From the IMG/VR virus record IMGVR_UViG_3300045988_008747: DNA of 43,003 bases; one strand, given 5' to 3'. This document shows positions 1-43,003 of the stretch, piece after piece. A model generated the notes under the pieces. The model was given only the letters and a program-made list of their open reading frames with translations. It made no database searches and was not told the origin of the DNA. The translations under genes and the position numbers were made by a program. Within the stretch, counting starts at the first letter, position 1; the number at the start of each line of letters is the position of its first letter. Source of the stretch: a virus.

Positions 1-135
1 CGTGCTGCAATCGCCGCTGGACCCCGCCGTGCTGCAATTGCCGCTGGACCCCGCCGTGCTGCAATTGCCGCTGGACCCCGCCGTGCTGCAATTGCCGCTG
101 GACCCCGCCGTGCTGGAATAGCCGCTGGAAAAAGG
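1..135. repeat. Tandem 27-bp coding repeat (5 units), same array as 42697..43003
   Basis: Units cgtgctgcaat[c/t]gccgctggaccccgc at 1, 28, 55 and 82, plus a degenerate unit at 109. Confidence 0.95.
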
Positions 136-27005: not shown

Positions 27006-27082
27006 TGGTGCCGCCTGTGGGGCTTGAACCCACGGCCCCCGGATTACAAATCCGGCGCTCTGGCCGACTGAGCTAAAGCGGC
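27006..27082 (-). tRNA. tRNA-Thr (anticodon UGU), CCA encoded
   Basis: GCCGCTT-TA-GCTC-AGTCGGCCA-GAGC-G-CCGGA-TTTGTAA-TCCGG-GGGCC-GTGGG-TTCAAGC-CCCAC-AGGCGGC-A-CCA. All four arms pair canonically. Confidence 0.9.
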
Positions 27083-27122: not shown

Positions 27123-27338
27123 TTAGTTTTTGCGTGCAACTTTGGTGATACATTCGACCGCCCAAAACTTCGCTTCCTGTAATTTTGTCATACACAGACT
27201 TTTTTCTCGGCTTTCAGGAAGTGCGTCAAGCTGCGTTGCAAGCTCAAGGAAAAGGTCTTCTGCCTCACAGTGCGCAGTTTTCACATCATCGGGCAGGAAC
27301 TTTTCTTTTGGTGTTTTGAACATTTTCTCCAAATTCAT
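27123..27338 (-). CDS. AT-richer moron (71 aa, helical), unknown
   Basis: AAGGAG RBS. MNLEKMFKTPKEKFLPDDVKTAHCEAEDLFLELATQLDALPESREKSLCMTKLQEAKFWAVECITKVARKN. Followed by its own terminator. Confidence 0.7.
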   Translation of the reverse strand: MNLEKMFKTPKEKFLPDDVKTAHCEAEDLFLELATQLDALPESREKSLCMTKLQEAKFWAVECITKVARKN

Positions 27339-27341
27339 GAA

Positions 27342-27794
27342 TTACAGCTCCTTGTTTCCTTCTTTCATTGCGATCTCTCGCAGTTCGTCAATGTGATCTT
27401 CCACCGCCGGGCGCAGGAACGGGCGGGCTTTCATGCCCCGGGTAAAGTGCCACTTGCCGTTGAAGTCTTTCCAGACCCACGGCGTTTTGCGTCCGTTTCC
27501 CTTCTCGGCAAAGATGCCCGTGCCCAGCTCCACATAGACGCTGTAAAACAGGTTGCTGCCGATGGTCACGGTCTTTTTGGCGAGGTCGATGGCAAAGGTC
27601 AGGCTCTGCTTGAGCGCGCCGCCCACGTAGCCCTCAATGCCCGTACTGTCTGCCGTGCCGGTAGGCACAAGCAGCTGGGCGTAGTCCTGCACCTTCATGC
27701 CCCAGATGGTCAGCACCCGCTCCGCCCACGAGTCCAGCGCCTCATGCAGCTGCGGGGTGTTGTCGGTAAATTTGATGTCGTAGTTAAAGTTCAT
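27342..27794 (-). CDS. HK97 gp10-family protein
   Basis: ...AQLLVPTGTADSTG...YSVYVELGTG...MKARPFLRPAVEDH. Confidence 0.75.
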   Translation of the reverse strand: MNFNYDIKFTDNTPQLHEALDSWAERVLTIWGMKVQDYAQLLVPTGTADSTGIEGYVGGALKQSLTFAIDLAKKTVTIGSNLFYSVYVELGTGIFAEKGNGRKTPWVWKDFNGKWHFTRGMKARPFLRPAVEDHIDELREIAMKEGNKEL

Positions 27795-27797
27795 GGT

Positions 27798-28211
27798 TTA
27801 CTTGCCTGTCCACGCCTTTTTCAGACGCTTATACAGTTCTCCGGTTTCTTCCCATTCTGCAGGCCAGTCACGCCGGGCGTATCTGTTTATGGCAAGCAGT
27901 ACAGACTGCGTTGCTTGCTGTCCGGTTTTACCGCTTAAATCGCCGCCAAACGCTTCCACAAGCGCACGGGAACTTTCTGTGCTATTTATAACATGTCGCA
28001 CACGTTCTGCTGCTGCAGCAGCTTGCTTTGCAGCGTTTTCGCCCGCCCTGGCAATGGTCGCCGGATTTTTGGAGGAAGCGATCACATCGTCCAATGCCGC
28101 GTTTGTCGTAGCCCGGATATCTTTAGCCCATGCGATCTGTTTTTCGCTGCCTTTCAGCGTTGCCATACCGCCGCCCGCTTTCGCAGAGCTGCCCGAACCT
28201 CGTTTACTCAC
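27798..28211 (-). CDS. Unknown protein (137 aa) carrying the N-terminal tag MSKRGSGSS
   Basis: GTG start with GAAAGGAGG upstream. MSKRGSGSSAKAGGGMATLKGSEKQIAWAKDIRA... Confidence 0.7.
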   Translation of the reverse strand: MSKRGSGSSAKAGGGMATLKGSEKQIAWAKDIRATTNAALDDVIASSKNPATIARAGENAAKQAAAAAERVRHVINSTESSRALVEAFGGDLSGKTGQQATQSVLLAINRYARRDWPAEWEETGELYKRLKKAWTGK

Positions 28212-28827
28212 GGTAGTGCCTCCTTTCGTATTGAAATGGCTTGATTTTGGTCACGTTCCAGTCAAATTCCGCAGGGCATTTGCCATACCACAAAATCCCG
28301 CTTGGTTGCAGCACTTCCAGCGCCTTGCGGCAGTGTTTGGCAAAGCACTCTGCTTCGTATGGGTCAGATTGTGTGCCGTGGCTCGAAATGCTCACGATGG
28401 CGTTTCTAGGCTCTCCGTCAAAGCACCAGTCATAGCTTTGCTCACCGCACCAGCAGAGCGTTGGAATGACGTTGATGCCGTGCGCCTGCCAGTATGCCGC
28501 AAGCCAGTGCTTTTTGTAGTGCATGAAAAGCTGCACCGCAAGCGGCATATCGCTGTAAAGCGAAAAATCCGGCGAACATACCGCTCCGAACTGCTGCAAA
28601 AGCGGGATATACTTGTCCGGGTTGTTCCAGAACCGTTCAAACTGGTAATCGTCCTTGTAAAAATGCACGCCTTTTGTGGCCTTGTCTTTGGCTGTCAACG
28701 CATAATTGACCGGGATCCATTCCAGCTTGTCAATGCGGATGTCCGTTTCCGGCTTGATTTCAGGGATGCCATACTTGCCCACGCCCGGAAAAATCATTTT
28801 CTCGGTGTTTTCCATCGGCAGAATCAC
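28204..28827 (-). CDS. DUF4417-like protein (207 aa)
   Basis: GTG start with GGAGGG 7 nt upstream. ...GVHFYKDDYQFERFWNNPDKYIPLLQQFGAVCSPDFSLYSDMPLAVQLFMHYKKHWLAAYWQAHGINVIPT... matches my recollection of the DUF4417 motif pattern. Confidence 0.7.
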   Translation of the reverse strand: MILPMENTEKMIFPGVGKYGIPEIKPETDIRIDKLEWIPVNYALTAKDKATKGVHFYKDDYQFERFWNNPDKYIPLLQQFGAVCSPDFSLYSDMPLAVQLFMHYKKHWLAAYWQAHGINVIPTLCWCGEQSYDWCFDGEPRNAIVSISSHGTQSDPYEAECFAKHCRKALEVLQPSGILWYGKCPAEFDWNVTKIKPFQYERRHYRE

Positions 28828-28841
28828 GGTTCATCCCTCCA

Positions 28842-29354
28842 TTATCGCTTAAACCAGTTATCCACTTTCTTTTGCAGACGCTTTTGTGCTCGCTTGTAGG
28901 TAGAACTTGTAATTTCACGTTGCTCACGATTTGGATTGTAGTGCTCACGGAAATACTTTTTTGCTTTTTCTCGCTCGACGTTTTCTGGGCTCCACTTCGG
29001 ATTGTCCGAGCCGAGTTCTTTAAGCATCCGCTTAACGATATAATTCGTCTGCTTATCCGTAAAGTCCGGGTTGATGTCATTGAAAACCGCGATTTTTGAA
29101 ATTTGGTATTCCATTCCGTCAACAAAAACATTAGACTTTGCAAGTTTTTCCGAAGTGTCATAGATTGTCCCATAGGCCCTTTGGGCTTGTTCTGCTTGCA
29201 TTTTATAAAAGTCCGTTTCACGAAACAGAGCTTCCACTTGGTTGATTTCTTTTGATTCCCGTGCCGTAAATCCCGAAATTCGCATGGAGCTACCAGAGCC
29301 ACGTTTACTCATAACCTTGCCCCCCCTACCAGACGAACGTCCTCCTCCAGACAT
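28842..29354 (-). CDS. Unknown AT-richer protein (170 aa) with a G/R/S-rich N-terminus that contains the same MSKRGSGSS tag (internal ATG at 29312)
   Basis: AAAGGAGAAATAGTT-ATG at 29354. MSGGGRSSGRGGKVMSKRGSGSSMRISGFTARE... Confidence 0.65.
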   Translation of the reverse strand: MSGGGRSSGRGGKVMSKRGSGSSMRISGFTARESKEINQVEALFRETDFYKMQAEQAQRAYGTIYDTSEKLAKSNVFVDGMEYQISKIAVFNDINPDFTDKQTNYIVKRMLKELGSDNPKWSPENVEREKAKKYFREHYNPNREQREITSSTYKRAQKRLQKKVDNWFKR

Positions 29355-29356
29355 AA

Positions 29357-30382
29357 CTATTTCTCCTTTCTCCGTTTTCTCTCTTCCGCCCACCACATCT
29401 GTTCGGCTTCTTTTCCGCCCTTGGATTTATACCACTCGGTGTAATCCATGACGGGGGTGGTCTCTTTGGTCACATTGTCCCGCTGCATGGCGTTCTGCCG
29501 GGGATACTTGCCCAGCGCAGAGGACAGAACACAACGGCAGTGGTAGACCATCTCCGGCGCTGCGTTTGGGTCTCCGGGGCGCTGAATCTCGTAGCCCATG
29601 ACCTTGAACGGCTCGTCAAGCTCTGCTGTCTGCTGGTCAAGCAGTCGGTGCATTTCACGGGTTCGATAGTCGTGGGTGGAGTTCCAGCGCTTTTTGACCT
29701 CGATGCCCAAAGCCTGAGCGTTGCGCATCTGCTGCAAAGCTCCGGCGTTCTGGGCGCTGGTAAGGGCTGTGATGGCGTTGTTCATGGCCCAGTGTATCTC
29801 CGTGTCTGCCATGCCGTTGACGGCCTGCACGGCGATGTCGTGGACGCTCTTGCCCTGCACGATGCCCTGCATGACGTAGCGGTTGAATACCTTTGCATCA
29901 TAGGTGCGGTTGCTCTCGCTCTTGATGCGCTTGTTTGGCACCATGCGGGGGTTCTCCTTCAGCAGGAGCTTGACCGCTTCGGTGTTGTACAGGGTCAGTC
30001 CAAACGTCACGCCTGCGGCCTGTTCCAGCTCGTAGAAAGCCCAGTTTGCGCCGAAGGAAAAGATATTGTACTGCTCGTCCCGGGCCAGCTTGTAGGCCGT
30101 CTGTTGGGCTGTGGTGCAGGTCTGCGTGATGCCGTCCAGCTTCTGACGCATCAAATCGGACTGAAAGACTTGATTTTGCAGCCAGATGCGGTAATCGTCC
30201 TCTGTAATCTCGCCTGCATCCAGCTGCACCCGCTTGCGCTCGTCCAGCGCTTTGTACTTTGCCAGAAAATCGGTCAGCTGCTTCTGCATCTCCCGGCGGG
30301 CAGTGCCGTACACCCGGAGGATACGGCGGCGCAGACGGTTCAGCTGGCGGGTAGAGATGCGGTCACGGTCGGTCTGTTTCAT
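29357..30382 (-). CDS. Minor head protein, SPP1 gp7 / Mu F family
   Basis: ...KKRWNSTHDYRTREMHRLLDQQTAELDEPFKVMGYEIQRPGDPNAAPEMVYHCRCVL. Confidence 0.85.
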   Translation of the reverse strand: MKQTDRDRISTRQLNRLRRRILRVYGTARREMQKQLTDFLAKYKALDERKRVQLDAGEITEDDYRIWLQNQVFQSDLMRQKLDGITQTCTTAQQTAYKLARDEQYNIFSFGANWAFYELEQAAGVTFGLTLYNTEAVKLLLKENPRMVPNKRIKSESNRTYDAKVFNRYVMQGIVQGKSVHDIAVQAVNGMADTEIHWAMNNAITALTSAQNAGALQQMRNAQALGIEVKKRWNSTHDYRTREMHRLLDQQTAELDEPFKVMGYEIQRPGDPNAAPEMVYHCRCVLSSALGKYPRQNAMQRDNVTKETTPVMDYTEWYKSKGGKEAEQMWWAEERKRRKEK

Positions 30383-31166
30383 GGCTGTTCAGATACTCCA
30401 CAATGGCACGTTCCCGGGCGGACAGCTCCCATTTTGTAGCCGCAGCGCTCTCAGCCGCAGCGCTCTCAGCCGCAGCGCTCTCAGCCGCAGCGCGATCAGA
30501 CAAAATCAGCCCGCCGCCAAATATGGTTTTCCTGGTGGAGCGTTGTGCATCCAGCGCATAAATCGGAGCGCAGTCCTTTTTGTGAATTTTGAAATCCACA
30601 CCGTAATGGCTGTATCGTTGAAGCAATGCAGCCGTCACAATATGATCTGGGTATTTATACTTTGGCAGCTGCACCGTTTTGGTGCGTCGCAGGCGTTCCA
30701 CCTCATCGTTTACCAGCTTCGTCAGGCGAGGTTCTGTCTGCGCTATGATGTCCCCGCCGTAGCTTGTCACAAAACTTGTTCTGACGATTGCACCGTTTTC
30801 GTACTCGATATTACAGCCGCAAATGATATGGTTCATCCGCATATTATTTGCCCTTCCAGAAAACGCTGTCAAAGATGGAGCGAATAGGAAGAACGGAATG
30901 CCACGATCGAGATAGAACCCGCAGATTCGGGACAGGATTGAAAACGGCGGGTTGTCCAGAACGACAGCGCCCTCCGGGTAATCGAAATTCTCATAATCGC
31001 CGCCGGGATAAAATGGCCGCACAATTTTGGCCGGGTCGATGCCGTACTCCTTGCAAGCCCAGTCCCGGATGACCGCGTACACGCTGGGCGGTGTATAGCA
31101 ATCGTCCGTGGTCTTTTTGGGCTTGAACTTTTCCACGAACTCATCATATGTTTCGCCTGCTGCCAT
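30363..31166 (-). CDS. DNA N6-adenine methyltransferase candidate (DNPPF motif) with an AAESA repeat linker
   Basis: ...DDCYTPPSVYAVIRDW...GAVVLDNPPFSILS... GAGGAGG RBS before the ATG at 31166. Confidence 0.7.
   Translation of the reverse strand: MAAGETYDEFVEKFKPKKTTDDCYTPPSVYAVIRDWACKEYGIDPAKIVRPFYPGGDYENFDYPEGAVVLDNPPFSILSRICGFYLDRGIPFFLFAPSLTAFSGRANNMRMNHIICGCNIEYENGAIVRTSFVTSYGGDIIAQTEPRLTKLVNDEVERLRRTKTVQLPKYKYPDHIVTAALLQRYSHYGVDFKIHKKDCAPIYALDAQRSTRKTIFGGGLILSDRAAAESAAAESAAAESAAATKWELSARERAIVEYLNSHETDRP
30439..30494. repeat. 15-bp tandem repeat (gccgcagcgctctca, 3.7 copies) encoding (AAESA)n
   Basis: Direct reading of 30439-30494. Confidence 0.9.
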
Positions 31167-32544
31167 CTTCGTCCTCCTCATCCTCGTCCACAGTCTCCCG
31201 TGTTTCGCTCTCAGCCATCAGCGCGGCCTTGGCCTGCTCCTTTTGTTCCGGGGTCAGGTTGGGCAGCAGGTCGATTGCCATGTCCTGCCCGATAATGGCG
31301 GCCTCGGAAATCACCATGCTGACCTGTTCGGCCGTGTTGGTGATCTTGCTGCGGTTGAATGCTGGCATAGCGTTTTCAAAGCCAGCCAGTGCGCAGATCT
31401 GCCGGATGAACGGCTTGACCTGTGCCTCGAAGTCGTCTGCGTTCTGGTTCAGCGGTTCATAGGCTGCATCCAGATGGTCGTTTGTGCTGTCCGCGCTGAC
31501 ACAGTGCACGTCCAGCCCGCCGAAGTCCTCATAGACCCGGGTGTGGAGCAACTCCAGCAGAGTCTGCCGGGCCGCTACAGGGATCTCGGTGGTGTAGGGG
31601 GTGATCTTGCCGCCCTCGCTGGTGTCTGCGCCTGCAATGTGGTACAGATTCAGCTTGACGAGGTACTCCACGAGTTCATCATCGGTCATTCCGTTGAAGT
31701 TCTCGCACAGCCAGTAGATCTGCGCGCAGTCCTGCAGGTCATTGCAGAAGCCGGACATCACCAGATCGGTGTTGTCAATGTAGGCTTTCAGCCCCACAAG
31801 GGTGCTCTGGTGCAGGTCGGAGCCCCACAGCGGCACAATGGGAAGAGCGCTGTAGTTTTCGCCCTCCACGCTTTCCAGCCCGCCGCCGGGTGTGGTGACA
31901 GTCACGCTCTTGTATGCCTGCTTCGGCGTTGTCTCCTGCATCACATTGCCGATTTTGCTTTCCGTGTACTCGGTAAAGCCGTCCAGCTCGTACAGGATAT
32001 AATGCATATCCGTGTCAGGGTTCAGCCGCCAGAAGCGCACGCCTGCCTGCAAAAGACCAGTCTTTTCATCGTACAGGGGAGCAAACTCGGTCAGCTTGAA
32101 AACCACCAGATGGTCGCTGTTCCAGAAGCCAAAGCTCTCGCCGTGGATCAGGGCGAAATATCCGGCTTTCTGGATCTGCTCGTCGAAGTTCTGCCCCAGA
32201 CTTTCCTTGTCCACGCCATCGTCCGCAAAGACCACGCCATTGCCGAGGGAGTAGGTCGCCCGCTGCTTGTTGAGCCGCCGGAAAAGATTGCTCTTGACCA
32301 TATCGGGGCGCGGGGTGTCCTGCCTGGTGTTTTTGGATAGGCGTTTCAGCATCAAAGCGTAAGCCTGCGCAAAGCGCTCAGCTCCCGGGTTTTTCTGGGC
32401 ATCGTACAGGTCTGCGTCCAGCGCCATCTTGTACGGTCCGGAAGCGCAGTGCTGCTGCACGAACTGCCGGATGAAATCGGGCTGTTCGCCGGCGGCTTGC
32501 GCCTGCTGGAAGGTCTGGAATGTGTATACAGTGCTCAAAATCAA
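31144..32544 (-). CDS. Portal protein (SPP1 gp6-like)
   Basis: 466 aa immediately after terL. The annotated start is TTG overlapping the terL stop, so the exact start is uncertain (a second TTG lies at 32538). Confidence 0.85.
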   Translation of the reverse strand: MILSTVYTFQTFQQAQAAGEQPDFIRQFVQQHCASGPYKMALDADLYDAQKNPGAERFAQAYALMLKRLSKNTRQDTPRPDMVKSNLFRRLNKQRATYSLGNGVVFADDGVDKESLGQNFDEQIQKAGYFALIHGESFGFWNSDHLVVFKLTEFAPLYDEKTGLLQAGVRFWRLNPDTDMHYILYELDGFTEYTESKIGNVMQETTPKQAYKSVTVTTPGGGLESVEGENYSALPIVPLWGSDLHQSTLVGLKAYIDNTDLVMSGFCNDLQDCAQIYWLCENFNGMTDDELVEYLVKLNLYHIAGADTSEGGKITPYTTEIPVAARQTLLELLHTRVYEDFGGLDVHCVSADSTNDHLDAAYEPLNQNADDFEAQVKPFIRQICALAGFENAMPAFNRSKITNTAEQVSMVISEAAIIGQDMAIDLLPNLTPEQKEQAKAALMAESETRETVDEDEEDEDGSRRNI

Positions 32545-34448: not shown

Positions 34449-34570
34449 ATATAAGCAGCGCCCGTGCATTCAGTGTGTTGGACATGCGTCAAACGGTGGG
34501 CGCTGCTGCATCCGGAACTTTCGCGGCCGGATGCCCCGCTATTGCGCCGCCCCCTCATAGGGCACGCAAG
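34449..34570 (-). ncRNA. Structured spacer between tRNA-Trp and the Lys-like element
   Basis: Perfect 8-bp stem GCATCCGG/CCGGATGC (11-nt loop) and perfect 10-bp stem AGCAGCGCCC/GGGCGCTGCT enclosing a GTTTGAC-GCAT-GTCCAAC hairpin. Confidence 0.3.
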
Positions 34571-34643
34571 CACTCCCGGCAGGGCTCGAACCTGCAACAT
34601 GCGGTTTTGGAGACCGCCGCTCTACCGCTTGAGCTACCGGAGT
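34571..34643 (-). tRNA. tRNA-Trp (anticodon CCA), CCA not encoded
   Basis: ACTCCGG-TA-GCTC-AAGCGGTA-GAGC-G-GCGGT-CTCCAAA-ACCGC-ATGTT-GCAGG-TTCGAGC-CCTGC-CGGGAGT-G. One G.G mismatch in the acceptor stem. Confidence 0.85.
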
Positions 34644-42490: not shown

Positions 42491-43003
42491 GGCTCGGCCT
42501 CCACAAACTCCCCGTTTTTGAGGGTATAGTAGACTTTTTCTCTGATGGCAGAGCCATCCACGCGGGCCATTTTGGCGCAGATCATGTGGCCGTCATCGTC
42601 GTACTCAGTCAGCACCAGATAGCAGCCCAGTGCGCCACACGCCTTACCGAAAGCACCGTTTACAACGGCAATGCTATCTTTTCCGTCTACTTTTGCGCTG
42701 CAATAATCCCCAGTGGCTGCCGCCGTGCTGTAATCGCCGCTGGACCCCGCCGTGCTGTAATTGCCGCTGGACCCCGCCGTGCTGTAATCGCCGCTGGACA
42801 CCGCCATGCTGTAATCGCCGCTGGACCCCGCCGTGCTGCAATCGCCGCTGGACCCCGCCGTGCTGCAATTGCCACTGGACCCCGCCGTGCTGTAATCGCC
42901 GCTGGACCCCGCCGTGCTGCAATCGCCGCTGGACCCCGCCGTGCTGCAATTGCCGCTGGACCCCGCCGTGCTGCAATTGCCGCTGGACCCCGCCGTGCTG
43001 CAA
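42487..43003 (-). CDS. C-terminal part of the repeat protein begun at 468..1 (nonapeptide array plus C-terminal globular domain)
   Basis: The frame is open from nt 43003: ...CSTAGSSGNCSTAGSSGDCSTAGSSGDYSTAG...SSGDYSTAAATGDYCSAKVDGKDSIAVVNGAFGKACGALGCYLVLTEYDDDGHMICAKMARVDGSAIREKVYYTLKNGEFVEAEP*. The track's ATG at 42807 is internal. Confidence 0.8.
   Translation of the reverse strand, partial: CSTAGSSGNCSTAGSSGNCSTAGSSGDCSTAGSSGDYSTAGSSGNCSTAGSSGDCSTAGSSGDYSMAVSSGDYSTAGSSGNYSTAGSSGDYSTAAATGDYCSAKVDGKDSIAVVNGAFGKACGALGCYLVLTEYDDDGHMICAKMARVDGSAIREKVYYTLKNGEFVEAEP
42697..43003. repeat. Tandem 27-bp coding repeat (about 11.4 units), continuous with 1..135
   Basis: Period of 27 confirmed by gctgga at 42901 and 42928. 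Units are identical apart from a few positions. Confidence 0.95.

What the first reader, a model, noticed from the sequence alone, without database searches (positions are those of the whole stretch)
27798..29354. Identical N-terminal peptide MSKRGSGSS on two otherwise unrelated proteins flanking a DUF4417-like gene, conserved despite synonymous divergence
The product of 27798..28211 starts (GTG) AGT AAA CGA GGT TCG GGC AGC TCT. The product of 28842..29354 contains ATG AGT AAA CGT GGC TCT GGT AGC TCC at 29312-29286. Both encode the same nine residues, M-S-K-R-G-S-G-S-S, yet they differ at 5 synonymous third positions. The peptide itself is therefore under selection and is not a recent DNA duplication. 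After the tag the proteins diverge completely. The second protein also has an upstream G/R/S-rich extension (MSGGGRSSGRGGKV) and an alternative start. The three genes (tagged protein, DUF4417-like, tagged protein) are wedged between the gp7-like minor head protein and the gp10-like protein. In that location, phages often encode proteins packaged into capsids and injected. The shared tag could be a capsid-targeting, processing or ejection signal that marks cargo proteins. I am not aware of this motif being described.
Basis: seen in the sequence. Interest (0 to 1): 0.65.

Follow-up and report, generated by a model that had tools for sequence, protein, structure and literature searches.

The report
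Shared leader peptide on swappable phage proteins
Two unrelated small proteins flanking a DUF4417 gene in this gut phage begin with the same 15-residue leader, which is a local version of a widespread, apparently undescribed N-terminal tag ("GGRG leader") that marks interchangeable, very basic effector and toxin proteins next to DUF4417 in phages of Firmicutes and Actinobacteria, and probably addresses them to shared phage machinery such as the capsid.

Summary
M/V-SKRGSGSS occurs exactly twice in the window, with 5 synonymous differences.

- **What the tag is.** It is the core of a disordered 15-residue leader, M-SKRGSGSS-[AT]RA[GS][GS]G. The leader sits on the conserved side of two cassette slots, one after MuF and one overlapping the DUF4417 stop codon.
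- **Recurrence.** In at least 119 related viral contigs, 184 copies all lie at ORF N-termini. They sit on at least 12 unrelated cargo families, and the same families occur in either slot.
- **Wider class.** The tag grades into a broader leader: MSGGGRSSGRGG, MGGRGSGSG, MGGRGASSG, MGGRGGAGG. In many Firmicutes phages this leader follows a bL27/Prp-type propeptide (MxxNLQFF|GGRG).
- **Link to DUF4417.** 73 of 76 DUF4417-anchored loci have an adjacent leader gene. So do 5 of 5 actinophages examined, where the cargo includes ADP-ribosyltransferase and Tox-PL1 toxins followed by small acidic genes, one of them annotated as an immunity protein.
- **Cargo properties.** Leader proteins are about 140 aa, 95-100% have pI above 9, and most have basic C-terminal tails.

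The best reading is an address tag for virion-delivered effectors, analogous to the T4 capsid-targeting sequence. Virion presence is untested, and one shallow proteome did not detect such a protein. The role of DUF4417 is unknown. No paper describing the leader was found.

The parts
28167..28211 (-). Leader of gene A: (GTG)M-SKRGSGSS-AKAGGG, 15 codons. Its first codons overlap the DUF4417 stop codon (GTGAGTAA).
   Evidence: Homology with relatives that carry a different cargo ends at about codon 14.
28219..28226 (-). Shine-Dalgarno AAAGGAGG, 7 nt upstream of the GTG start of gene A.
   Evidence: Read. The same arrangement is conserved in 71 unique slot-2 sequences.
27798..28211 (-). Gene A (137 aa): leader, then the conserved G-[ST]-E-K-Q-[IV]-x-W-A motif, then a basic tail ...KRLKKAWTGK. 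This is the cargo in slot 2.
   Evidence: All 12 family members hit PHROG 16123 and 11 hit PHROG 6775, both of unknown function. No Pfam or NCBIfam hit.
28204..28827 (-). DUF4417 gene (207 aa), the conserved partner between the two cassette slots.
   Evidence: Pfam PF14386, 2e-53. The AF2 model has pLDDT 89.8 and an alpha/beta fold. There is no significant PDB fold match; the best is E 0.04, with weak TIM-barrel-like hits. Invariant HF..DD, PDFS and CFDG motifs.
28842..29354 (-). Gene C (170 aa from ATG 29354; 156 aa from ATG 29312): tandem leaders followed by an all-alpha cargo domain. This is the cargo in slot 1.
   Evidence: In the AF2 model residues 1-22 are disordered and the rest is helical. 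No PDB fold match.
29286..29312 (-). Second copy of the tag, ATG AGT AAA CGT GGC TCT GGT AGC TCC (MSKRGSGSS), with its own possible start.
   Evidence: It is an isolated 26-28 nt island of 92-96% identity to relatives that carry a different cargo.
29313..29354 (-). Alternative leader variant MSGGGRSSGRGGKV, fused upstream of the tag. It is probably a recombination product of the two leader types.
   Evidence: The same variant occurs alone on homologues (MSGGGR[AS]SGR[AG]G...).
28851..28964 (-). Conserved C-terminal module of gene C: A-K-K-YFREHYNPNREQREITSSTYKRAQKRLQKKVDNWF.
   Evidence: Invariant columns in A3. The same module closes many otherwise different MGGRG-leader proteins.
29357..30382 (-). 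MuF / SPP1 gp7-like minor head protein with polybasic C-terminus ...EERKRRKEK. It forms the conserved upstream flank of slot 1.
   Evidence: Pfam PF04233, 6e-15. Homology with relatives runs up to 5 nt before its stop codon.

Best explanation
**What it is.** The nine shared residues are the core of a 15-residue, intrinsically disordered N-terminal leader, M-SKRGSGSS-[A/T]RA[G/S][G/S]G. The leader belongs to the conserved framework of two gene-cassette slots, one on each side of a DUF4417 gene. The variable part that is exchanged between phages begins right after the leader and ends at the stop codon. It is a lineage-specific version of a widespread 'x-x-R-G-[SGA]-[GS]-[SG]' (GGRG) leader found on small, very basic phage proteins that usually end in a basic or aromatic tail.

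**How I think it works.**
- The leader is an address tag with a defined free N-terminus. That N-terminus is made by removal of Met, or in relatives by host Prp cutting an MxxNLQFF propeptide.
- One shared phage machinery recognises the tag on a changing repertoire of effectors.
- Most likely the tagged proteins are loaded into the procapsid, lie with the DNA, and enter the next cell with it. This is how T4 internal proteins behave, which share only a capsid-targeting sequence.
- DUF4417 is the conserved partner, either as loader or processing enzyme or as a co-delivered enzyme.

**Shown:**
- recurrence of the tag;
- peptide-level selection;
- cassette boundaries;
- linkage to DUF4417;
- the basic character of the cargo;
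- toxin cargo in relatives.

**Inferred:**
- recognition of the tag by a machinery;
- capsid loading and injection.

**Confidence split.** About 0.75 for 'address tag on swappable effectors'. About 0.4-0.45 for capsid delivery specifically.
For: **1. Recurrence at N-termini.**
- A DNA-pattern scan of viral contigs gave at least 119 loci and 184 tag copies.
- Every copy sits directly after an ATG or GTG.
- In 596 Gb of genome contigs, 21 of 23 pattern hits were out-of-ORF noise. The 2 real hits were Clostridia MAGs.

**2. Peptide-level selection.**
- Codons vary freely, including six-fold switches, while residues 1-8 stay fixed. Residues 9-14, which were not part of the search pattern, stay about 90% conserved.
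- The same holds for GGRG leaders.

**3. Cassettes.**
- There are at least 12 unrelated cargo families, and the same family occurs in either slot.
- Homology breakpoints fall at leader codon ~14 and at the cargo stop codon.

**4. Interchangeable leader variants.**
- Within single protein families the leader may be MSKRGSGSS, MSGGGRASGR.. or MGGRGGAGG.
- Likewise M|GGRGASSG alternates with MxxNLQFF|GGRGASSG. Two processing routes therefore converge on one mature N-terminus.
- The bL27 propeptide was verified. Prp cleavage of 80alpha capsid and scaffold proteins is from PMC5744158.

**5. Linkage to DUF4417.**
- 73 of 76 DUF4417-anchored loci have an adjacent leader gene.
- 80 of 120 leader-anchored loci have DUF4417 directly upstream or within about 1 kb.
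- So do 5 of 5 actinophages, Streptococcus phages A25 and Str01, Dorea phage DO134P1 and Roseburia phage Jekyll.
- DUF4417 is in 492 of 50,697 phage records but only 5 of 72,556 plasmid records.

**6. Cargo character.**
- All 87 unique SKRG-tagged proteins have pI above 9 (median 9.9, against 5.7 for other ORFs). 63% have at least 4 K/R in the last 8 residues, against 1.8%.
- Across 266 unique leader proteins, 95% have pI above 9.
- The leader is disordered in the AF2 model.

**7. Effector and toxin cargo in relatives.**
- Tox-PL1/Gln_amidase, 1e-13.
- ADPrib_exo_Tox, 4e-21.
- HExxH peptidases.
- Small acidic downstream genes, one annotated as an immunity protein.
- The same toxin domains are known as MuF fusions predicted to be head-packaged (PMC3482391; PMC9503650).

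**8. Position.** The genes lie inside or just upstream of the packaging/head module.

**9. [quoted passage not shown]
Against: - No direct evidence that any leader protein is in a virion. The Str01 virion proteome does not list APZ81907, although it lists only 12 proteins.
- Profile search of the gene C family found only small stand-alone proteins and no MuF, portal or polyvalent fusions.
- MuF proteins with C-terminal extensions in related phages lack the leader at the junction. The single MuF-leader-cargo fusion (L098) may be a frameshift or an assembly error.
- In one phage group leader genes sit after the endolysin gene, without DUF4417, a typical moron position.
- Capsid targeting does not explain why DUF4417 is the constant neighbour.
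- No binding partner has been identified.
- Many of the loci counted are close relatives, so the counts overstate independent events.
Confidence: 0.45

Rival explanations
1. The leader is the recognition or substrate peptide of the DUF4417 enzyme, following leader-peptide logic as in RiPP precursors. DUF4417 would modify, process or conjugate the free N-terminus of each neighbouring protein, for example onto DNA or another protein. Capsid loading would not be the point.
For: - Very tight reciprocal gene linkage with overlapping, translationally coupled starts across two phyla.
- DUF4417 has invariant acidic and polar motifs typical of an enzyme.
- It is fused to ParB-like NTPase domains and lies under annotated DNA methylases in phages (bioRxiv 10.1101/2025.10.10.680097).
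- The requirement for a precisely defined free N-terminus suits chemistry at that end.
- Leader subtype tracks DUF4417 subtype in both slots: the 207-aa type goes with MSKRG, the 212-aa type with MSGGGR.
Against: - Leader genes exist without DUF4417: 31 of 120 leader-anchored loci with at least 900 nt of upstream flank, mostly after the endolysin gene.
- The DUF4417 model matches no known peptide-modifying or transferase fold.
- The co-variation can be explained by physical linkage.
- No chemistry can be proposed from the data.
Confidence: 0.2
2. The leader is simply a flexible, basic Gly/Ser/Arg tail that binds nucleic acid, like histone H4/H2A or ribosomal-protein tails. It would be intrinsic to the function of these small DNA- or RNA-binding proteins and would not be a sorting signal.
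For: - It contains RG/RGG-type motifs.
- It is disordered.
- All carriers are strongly basic with polybasic C-termini.
Against: - A generic binding tail would not need an exact N-terminal register preserved by two different processing routes.
- It would not need near-invariant sequence over 8-15 residues across unrelated folds.
- Enzymatic toxins (ART, Tox-PL1, HExxH) and some acidic cargo (pI 5.3-5.6) carry it too.
Confidence: 0.15
3. The leader mimics the N-terminus of ribosomal protein bL27, either propeptide plus mature tail or the mature tail alone. It would direct the proteins to Prp or to the ribosome, for example to occupy the bL27 tail site or to titrate Prp.
For: - bL27 of Firmicutes is MLxLNLQFF|ASKKGV[GS]S[ST]KNG.
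- Relatives carry MxxNLQFF|GGRGGSSG.
- The window tag aligns as MSKRGSGSS against ASKKGVGST: 5 identical and 2 conservative of 9.
Against: - The resemblance was noticed post hoc in low-complexity sequence.
- Other Prp-cleaved phage proteins have no bL27-like mature end (PMC5744158).
- Actinophages use the leader although, from memory, their hosts lack the bL27 extension and Prp.
- The diversity of cargo is hard to reconcile with a single ribosomal site.
Confidence: 0.07
4. The conserved sequence is only a DNA-level recombination linker. It would be a short homology block at gene boundaries that lets phages swap cassettes, and the peptide would have no function.
For: - Breakpoints of homology coincide with the leader. 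In slot 1 the tag is an isolated 26-28 nt island of identity.
- Cassettes move between slots and phages.
- The window's tandem leader looks like a recombination joint.
Against: - Synonymous sites vary freely while the amino acids are fixed, including 2-nt codon-family switches.
- The two copies in one genome differ at 5 of 9 codons.
- Leader variants with no DNA similarity (MGGRGG, NLQFF-GGRG) occupy the same position in distant phyla.
- A boundary role is therefore real, but secondary to peptide-level selection.
Confidence: 0.05
5. Chance similarity of two low-complexity N-termini.
For: The peptide is rich in G, S and R.
Against: - The expected count of this 8-mer is 2e-6, and 0.75% of shuffles share any 8-mer.
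- 184 further copies were found, all at N-termini.
Confidence: 0.005

Closest known systems
T4-type capsid targeting sequence (CTS) of internal proteins IPI/IPII/IPIII and Alt
   Same: - A short conserved N-terminal peptide is the only thing shared by a hypervariable set of small, basic, DNA-embedded, host-directed proteins.
- The loci are polymorphic between related phages (PMC3012670).
   Different: - No sequence similarity.
- T4 CTS peptides are cut off by the gp21 prohead protease and bind the gp22 scaffolding core. This phage has no prohead protease gene in the head module and uses an SPP1-like MuF/scaffold/MCP set.
- Virion location is unproven here.
- There is a constant DUF4417 partner, which T4 lacks.
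MuF (SPP1 gp7 / Mu F) polymorphic toxins and polyvalent proteins
   Same: - The same kinds of effector (Alt/VIP2 ARTs, Tox-PL1) occur, with small downstream genes like immunity genes, encoded next to portal, terminase or MuF.
- Polymorphic C-terminal cargo sits behind a constant N-terminal module (PMC5576092; PMC3482391; PMC5512222; PMC9503650).
   Different: - The constant module here is a 9-20 residue disordered leader, not a folded MuF domain.
- The cargo genes are separate ORFs.
- MuF extensions in related phages lack the leader.
- The conserved neighbour is DUF4417.
Prp-cleaved N-terminal motif shared by bL27 and Staphylococcus phage 80alpha capsid, scaffold and other phage proteins
   Same: - An N-terminal peptide is shared by non-homologous phage proteins.
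- Relatives of the window's proteins carry the same MxxNLQFF propeptide directly before the GGRG leader.
   Different: - The window's two proteins have no NLQFF propeptide.
- The conserved element here is what remains after cleavage, whereas in 80alpha the conserved element is what is removed.
Encapsulin cargo-loading (targeting) peptides
   Same: Short Gly/Ser-rich disordered peptides direct unrelated cargo into an HK97-fold shell (from my own knowledge).
   Different: - Those peptides are usually C-terminal with a GSL-type hydrophobic motif.
- No sequence similarity.
- No evidence here of binding to the capsid protein.
Conserved demarcation motifs of polymorphic toxins (VENN in CdiA, PxxxxDPxGL in Rhs)
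   Same: A short conserved peptide marks the boundary between a constant part and a recombining variable toxin cassette (from my own knowledge).
   Different: - Those motifs lie inside very large secreted proteins.
- Here the constant part is only the leader itself.

Membership tests
T4 capsid targeting sequence / internal proteins | N-terminal 10-19 residue peptide ending in a prohead-protease (gp21) site, with a prohead protease encoded by the phage | tested here: not met
   No sequence resemblance. The gene order is portal - phrog_21498 - MuF - C - DUF4417 - A - gp10-like - Acb2-like - scaffold - MCP, with no protease gene.
T4 capsid targeting sequence / internal proteins | Tagged proteins are present inside the capsid and injected | not testable with these tools
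   The only related proteome (Str01, 12 proteins) does not list the leader protein.
T4 capsid targeting sequence / internal proteins | Hypervariable, basic cargo sharing only the tag | tested here: met
   At least 12 families. All SKRG-tagged proteins have pI above 9.
MuF polymorphic toxins | Toxin or cargo domain fused C-terminally to a MuF domain in one polypeptide | tested here: not met
   The cargo genes are separate ORFs with their own SD and start. Only one fused example was found (L098). The profile search found no MuF fusions.
MuF polymorphic toxins | Recognisable toxin domain followed by a small immunity gene | tested here: inconclusive
   Met in actinophage members of the leader class. 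The window's genes A and C have no recognisable domain and no obvious immunity gene.
Prp/bL27-type cleaved N-terminal motif | M-x(2-6)-[ND]-L-Q-[FLH]-F immediately before the mature N-terminus | tested here: not met
   Absent from both window proteins. Present in at least 120 related leader genes.
DUF4417 (Pfam PF14386), middle gene | Full-length match above the gathering score | tested here: met
   181 bits against a cutoff of 28.9, covering profile positions 4-182 of 183.
'GGRG leader' class (defined here) | x-x-R-G-[SGA]-[GS]-[SG] at the mature N-terminus of a small basic protein adjacent to DUF4417 | tested here: met
   Both window proteins fit. Homologues of each carry MGGRGG or MSGGGR variants at the aligned position.
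RiPP-type leader peptide with modifying enzyme | Partner enzyme of a known RiPP-modifying or leader-recognition (RRE) fold | tested here: not met
   The DUF4417 model has no significant PDB match. A weak MbnB/TIM-barrel hit at E 0.4 is not evidence.

The most novel reading that the evidence does not exclude
DUF4417 plus GGRG-leader proteins form a previously unrecognised effector-handling system of tailed phages that spans phyla.
- A defined free N-terminus is produced by MetAP, by host Prp, or by removal of a 55-75 residue pro-domain.
- The TIM-barrel-like DUF4417 enzyme recognises or chemically uses that N-terminus to load a rapidly exchanged arsenal of toxins and anti-defence proteins onto the DNA or into the capsid.
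- The arsenal is then delivered into the next cell.
Probability: 0.3. Interest if true: 0.85.

Novelty: new variant of a known kind. Interest (0 to 1): 0.7.

Why it matters
**If the leader is a delivery or handling tag:**
- It gives a simple sequence rule for finding phage proteins that act at the moment of DNA entry, such as toxins and anti-defence factors. This would apply to thousands of gut, streptococcal and actinobacterial phages, most of whose such proteins are now labelled 'hypothetical'.
- It would give a function to DUF4417, present in 492 of 50,697 deposited phage genomes.
- It could provide a portable tag for loading foreign proteins into siphophage particles, as the T4 CTS does for T4.

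**Independent of mechanism:**
- Many GenBank start codons for these genes appear to be set too far downstream. This is seen in A25_23, STR01_54, and gp2 of AN9 and PackMan.
- The locus is a clear example of cassette exchange with exact boundaries.

Tried and rejected
- **Known domains in genes A and C.** Pfam, NCBIfam and PHROG searches gave nothing informative. The same was true for 10 SKRG-tagged cargo families and for further leader proteins.
- **tblastn of A and C against 50,697 phage genomes.** No match.
- **Fold searches.** DUF4417 has no significant PDB match, only weak TIM-barrel-like, TGT, EAL and PdxJ hits at E >= 0.04. A DpdA/TGT-like DNA base-exchange role (suggested by the ParB fusions) therefore stays a guess. 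Gene C has no match. DUF4417 also has no sequence relative in the PDB.
- **Leader as the MuF-cargo linker of polyvalent proteins.** Rejected. Long MuF proteins in related phages lack it, and the gene C profile finds no fusions.
- **The 55-75 residue pro-domain before GGRG as ubiquitin-like (it ends ..RLDGG).** No Pfam support, so dropped.
- **RNA-level explanation (SD-like G-rich codons after the start).** Rejected, because codons vary freely.
- **Ntox24 for the A25_23-like family.** Only E 0.02-0.04, so not claimed.
- **JAB/Cap3-like hit for an MGGRGGSGS protein.** Only E 0.06-0.08, so not claimed.
- **Literature.** No phage paper contains 'MGGRG'. Only four papers mention DUF4417, none with a function.
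Full report
**1. The observation**

All genes discussed are on the minus strand. Gene A (27798..28211) starts GTG AGT AAA CGA GGT TCG GGC AGC TCT. Gene C (28842..29354) contains ATG AGT AAA CGT GGC TCT GGT AGC TCC at 29312..29286. Both encode (M)SKRGSGSS and differ at five synonymous third positions.

The motif occurs exactly twice in the six-frame translation of the window. Only 0.75% of 2000 shuffles of the window's proteins share any 8-mer between two proteins, and the expected count of this 8-mer from composition is 2e-6. BLASTP aligns the two proteins only over the tag.

Gene A's GTG has AAAGGAGG 7 nt upstream and overlaps the stop of the preceding gene (GTGAGTAA), so the tag is its true N-terminus. 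Gene C has two plausible starts:
- ATG 29354 (SD AAAGGAG), which gives MSGGGRSSGRGGKV-MSKRGSGSS.
- ATG 29312, which gives MSKRGSGSS directly. Many homologues begin this way.

The middle gene is DUF4417 (Pfam 2e-53). The flanks are MuF/gp7-like and HK97-gp10-like genes.

**2. Recurrence and selection**

These hold 184 copies, every one directly after an ATG or GTG start. As a control, the same pattern in 596 Gb of bacterial and archaeal genomes gave 23 hits. Of these, 21 are out-of-frame noise and 2 are real tags in uncultured Clostridia MAGs. The host is therefore probably a gut Clostridia member. The only near-identical public records are unannotated human-faecal phage contigs.

Across 130 unique DNA versions, codons vary freely. 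Examples are CGA/CGT/CGC/AGA for Arg and TCT/TCG/TCA/AGC for Ser. Meanwhile the residues are fixed. Positions 9-14, which were not part of any search pattern, are about 90% conserved as [AT]-R-A-[GS]-[GS]-G. The unit under selection is thus a peptide of about 15 residues, not a DNA repeat. In the AlphaFold model of gene C the first 22 residues (both leaders) are disordered and the rest is an all-alpha domain.

**3. Anatomy: two cassette slots around DUF4417**

- Slot 1 begins with ATG at the end of MuF.
- Slot 2 begins with GTG overlapping the DUF4417 stop.
- Each slot has its own preferred codon set.
- Behind the leader there are at least 12 unrelated protein families, and the same family can occupy either slot.

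Pairwise DNA comparison of the window with relatives carrying other cargo shows these blocks of homology:
- up to the end of MuF;
- an isolated 26-28 nt island of 92-96% identity that is the slot-1 tag itself;
- from the slot-1 stop codon through DUF4417 to about codon 14 of the slot-2 leader;
- again from the slot-2 stop codon onward.

The exchanged unit is therefore 'cargo minus leader', and the leader belongs to the constant framework. The window's tandem leader on gene C looks like a joint between the two leader types.

**4. The tag is one variant of a much wider leader**

Homologues of both window proteins carry MSGGGR[AS]SGR[AG]G.. or MGGRGGAGG at the aligned position.

Loci collected through DUF4417 alone, without reference to the tag, show a continuum of leaders: MSKRGSGSS, MSKRGSGSGS, MSGGGRSSGRGG, MGGRGSGSGRGG, MGGRGASSG, MGGRGGAGGG. 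Of 76 such loci, 73 have a leader gene directly next to DUF4417.

In all of them the motif forms the N-terminus M-x(1-4)-NLQFF-GGRG[GSA][SG][SG] of a small protein. Of these 120, 56 have DUF4417 ending at the leader gene's start and 24 more have it within about 1 kb.

MxxNLQFF is the propeptide of Firmicutes ribosomal protein bL27 (verified). The host protease Prp removes it, and Prp also trims the capsid and scaffold proteins of phage 80alpha (PMC5744158).

Within a single protein family, near-identical orthologues begin either M|GGRGASSG or MxxNLQFF|GGRGASSG. Two processing routes therefore give the same mature N-terminus, which argues that a free, exactly registered N-terminus matters.

A third arrangement, a 55-75 residue pro-domain ending ..L(D)GGRG, follows DUF4417 in Streptococcus phage IPP54 and in an Enterocloster bolteae 44-kb 'plasmid'.

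The pairing also holds in Actinobacteria phages. In 5 of 5 examined (Equemioh13, AN9, PackMan, OhShagHennessy, Gordonia Remus), the gene overlapping the DUF4417 3' end starts MGGRG.. or MGRGR... In AN9 and PackMan the leader lies in frame upstream of the annotated start; A25_23 and STR01_54 show the same mis-annotation.

DUF4417 occurs in 492 of 50,697 phage records and in only 5 of 72,556 plasmid records.

**5. What the tagged proteins are**

| Set | Number | Median length | pI | C-terminal tail |
|---|---|---|---|---|
| SKRG-tagged proteins | 87 unique | not computed | all above 9; median 9.9, against 5.7 for other ORFs | 63% have at least 4 K/R in the last 8 residues, against 1.8% |
| All leader proteins | 266 unique | 138 aa | 95% above 9 | most end in a poly-K/R tail or a basic-aromatic motif |

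One of these C-terminal motifs, REITSSTYxRAQxRLxKxVxxWFGRGM, closes gene C and many otherwise different MGGRG proteins.

Genes A and C have no recognisable domain or fold. In the wider class the cargo includes:
- an ADP-ribosyltransferase (Gordonia phage Remus gp2, 4e-21);
- a papain-fold Tox-PL1 glutamine deamidase (Equemioh13 gp3, 1e-13);
- HExxH peptidases.

In the actinophages a small acidic gene follows, annotated in one case as an immunity protein. The same toxin domains are known as C-terminal fusions to MuF and are thought to be packaged in phage heads (PMC3482391; PMC5512222; PMC9503650).

**6. Mechanism**

*Shown:* there is a conserved, disordered, N-terminal peptide under purifying selection. 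It is part of the constant frame of recombining cassettes. It is interchangeable among variants and is tightly linked to DUF4417. It sits on uniformly basic small proteins and, in relatives, on toxins.

*Inferred:* it is an address tag read by a shared phage machinery. The reading I favour (about 0.4-0.45) is loading into the procapsid and co-delivery with the DNA, as for T4 internal proteins. [quoted passage not shown]

Points in favour:
- late or packaging-module position;
- basic, DNA-compatible cargo;
- toxins followed by immunity-like genes that lack any other trafficking domain;
- Prp-type processing shared with capsid proteins;
- the phage-specific distribution of DUF4417.

Points against:
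- there is no virion evidence;
- the shallow Str01 proteome does not list the protein;
- no MuF fusions of the gene C family were found;
- MuF extensions lack the leader;
- some leader genes lie after the endolysin gene, without DUF4417.

Rival explanations:
- The leader is the recognition or substrate peptide of the DUF4417 enzyme (0.2).
- It is a generic nucleic-acid-binding tail (0.15).
- It mimics bL27 (0.07).
- It is a purely DNA-level recombination linker (0.05; contradicted by codon data, although the boundary role is real).
- It is chance (below 0.01).

DUF4417 itself remains unexplained. Its confident model (pLDDT 89.8) has no significant PDB match.

**7. Comparison with known systems and novelty**

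The leader works like the T4 CTS and like the constant trafficking module of polymorphic toxins, but it is a member of neither:
- it has no sequence similarity to either;
- the phage has no prohead protease;
- there is no folded MuF module in the cargo proteins;
- the window copies have no NLQFF propeptide.

I found no paper that mentions the leader and none that assigns a function to DUF4417. I file it as a new variant of a known kind: a shared targeting or handling peptide on polymorphic phage effectors. The DUF4417 link and the convergent N-terminal processing are new elements.

**8. Caveats**

- Many counted loci are close relatives from one large gut dataset.
- My ORF and start calls are heuristic.
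- The statements that MetAP removes Met before Gly or Ser, and that Actinobacteria lack Prp, rest on general knowledge and were not tested here.

Noticed in passing
window 27123..27338 (-): A 71-aa gene with an Acb2/Tad1 hairpin domain (Pfam 9e-11), which is like an anti-CBASS/anti-Thoeris sponge. It lies in a third variable slot between the gp10-like gene and the scaffold gene. Relatives carry unrelated genes there: a lipoprotein-like gene, 87-113 aa proteins, and a putative HNH-like protein.
   Followed up: partly
window 27006..27082 (-) and 34570..34643 (-): tRNA-Thr(tgt) sits between the Acb2-like gene and the scaffold gene, inside the head module. tRNA-Trp(cca) lies further upstream.
   Followed up: no
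window 1..129 and 42720..43003: Both ends of the window carry the same 27-bp tandem repeat, 4.8 and 10.5 copies. The window is probably a circularly closed or permuted whole phage genome cut inside this array.
   Followed up: no
window 30363..31181 (-), repeat at 30438..30493: The gene between portal and MuF (PHROG 21498, unknown function) contains a perfect 15-bp x 3.7 repeat encoding (AAAES)n. In relatives this position holds small unrelated ORFs of 53-71 aa.
   Followed up: no
window 27342..27794 (-): An HK97-gp10-like / tail-completion (Neck1) gene lies upstream of the scaffold and major capsid genes. This is an unusual order for a head-tail joining gene.
   Followed up: no
L151:358-384 (Streptococcus phage A25), L356 (Str01), L358 (AN9), L359 (PackMan): The deposited start codons of the genes after DUF4417 lie downstream of an in-frame MGGRG.. 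start that follows a stop codon or overlaps DUF4417. The leader is therefore missing from the database proteins.
   Followed up: partly
L098 (IMGVR_UViG_3300045988; 488-aa ORF): This is the single case where MuF runs in frame into ..KENAERRTQR-MSKRGSGSS-cargo. There is no DUF4417 and no slot 2 in that locus. It may be a real fusion or a frameshift or assembly error.
   Followed up: partly
window 28851..28964 (-); P0250, P0258, P0266, P0280, P0283 and others: A nearly invariant C-terminal module, YFREHYNPNREQREITSSTYKRAQ..L...V..WF(GRGM), closes many different MGGRG-leader proteins. Other leader families share further C-terminal motifs, namely GKxYYRxxKxSxxWR, RKGWKG(H) and xWYNxxxK. Their function is unknown.
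   Followed up: partly
L155:4563-5309 (Streptococcus phage IPP54 gp32), L357:4116-4898 (Enterocloster bolteae 44-kb plasmid): After ParB-DUF4417 or DUF4417 comes a 248-260 aa protein. In it a 55-75 residue N-terminal domain ending ..NFTLGGG / ..YMRLDGG precedes RGA.., which suggests a cleavable pro-domain. A ubiquitin-like reading found no Pfam support.
   Followed up: partly
L239, L322, L300, L281: NLQFF-GGRG leader proteins of 214-232 aa carry an HExxH motif (HEMGHALT, HELGHKLT, HEAGHLIT). They are probably zinc metallopeptidases, and two of them are acidic (pI 5.6).
   Followed up: no
L004, L006, L059: The identical cargo-DUF4417-cargo module, including the same RBS and leader DNA, sits upstream of the small terminase gene in a different phage backbone. 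The module therefore moves as a unit between phage types.
   Followed up: partly
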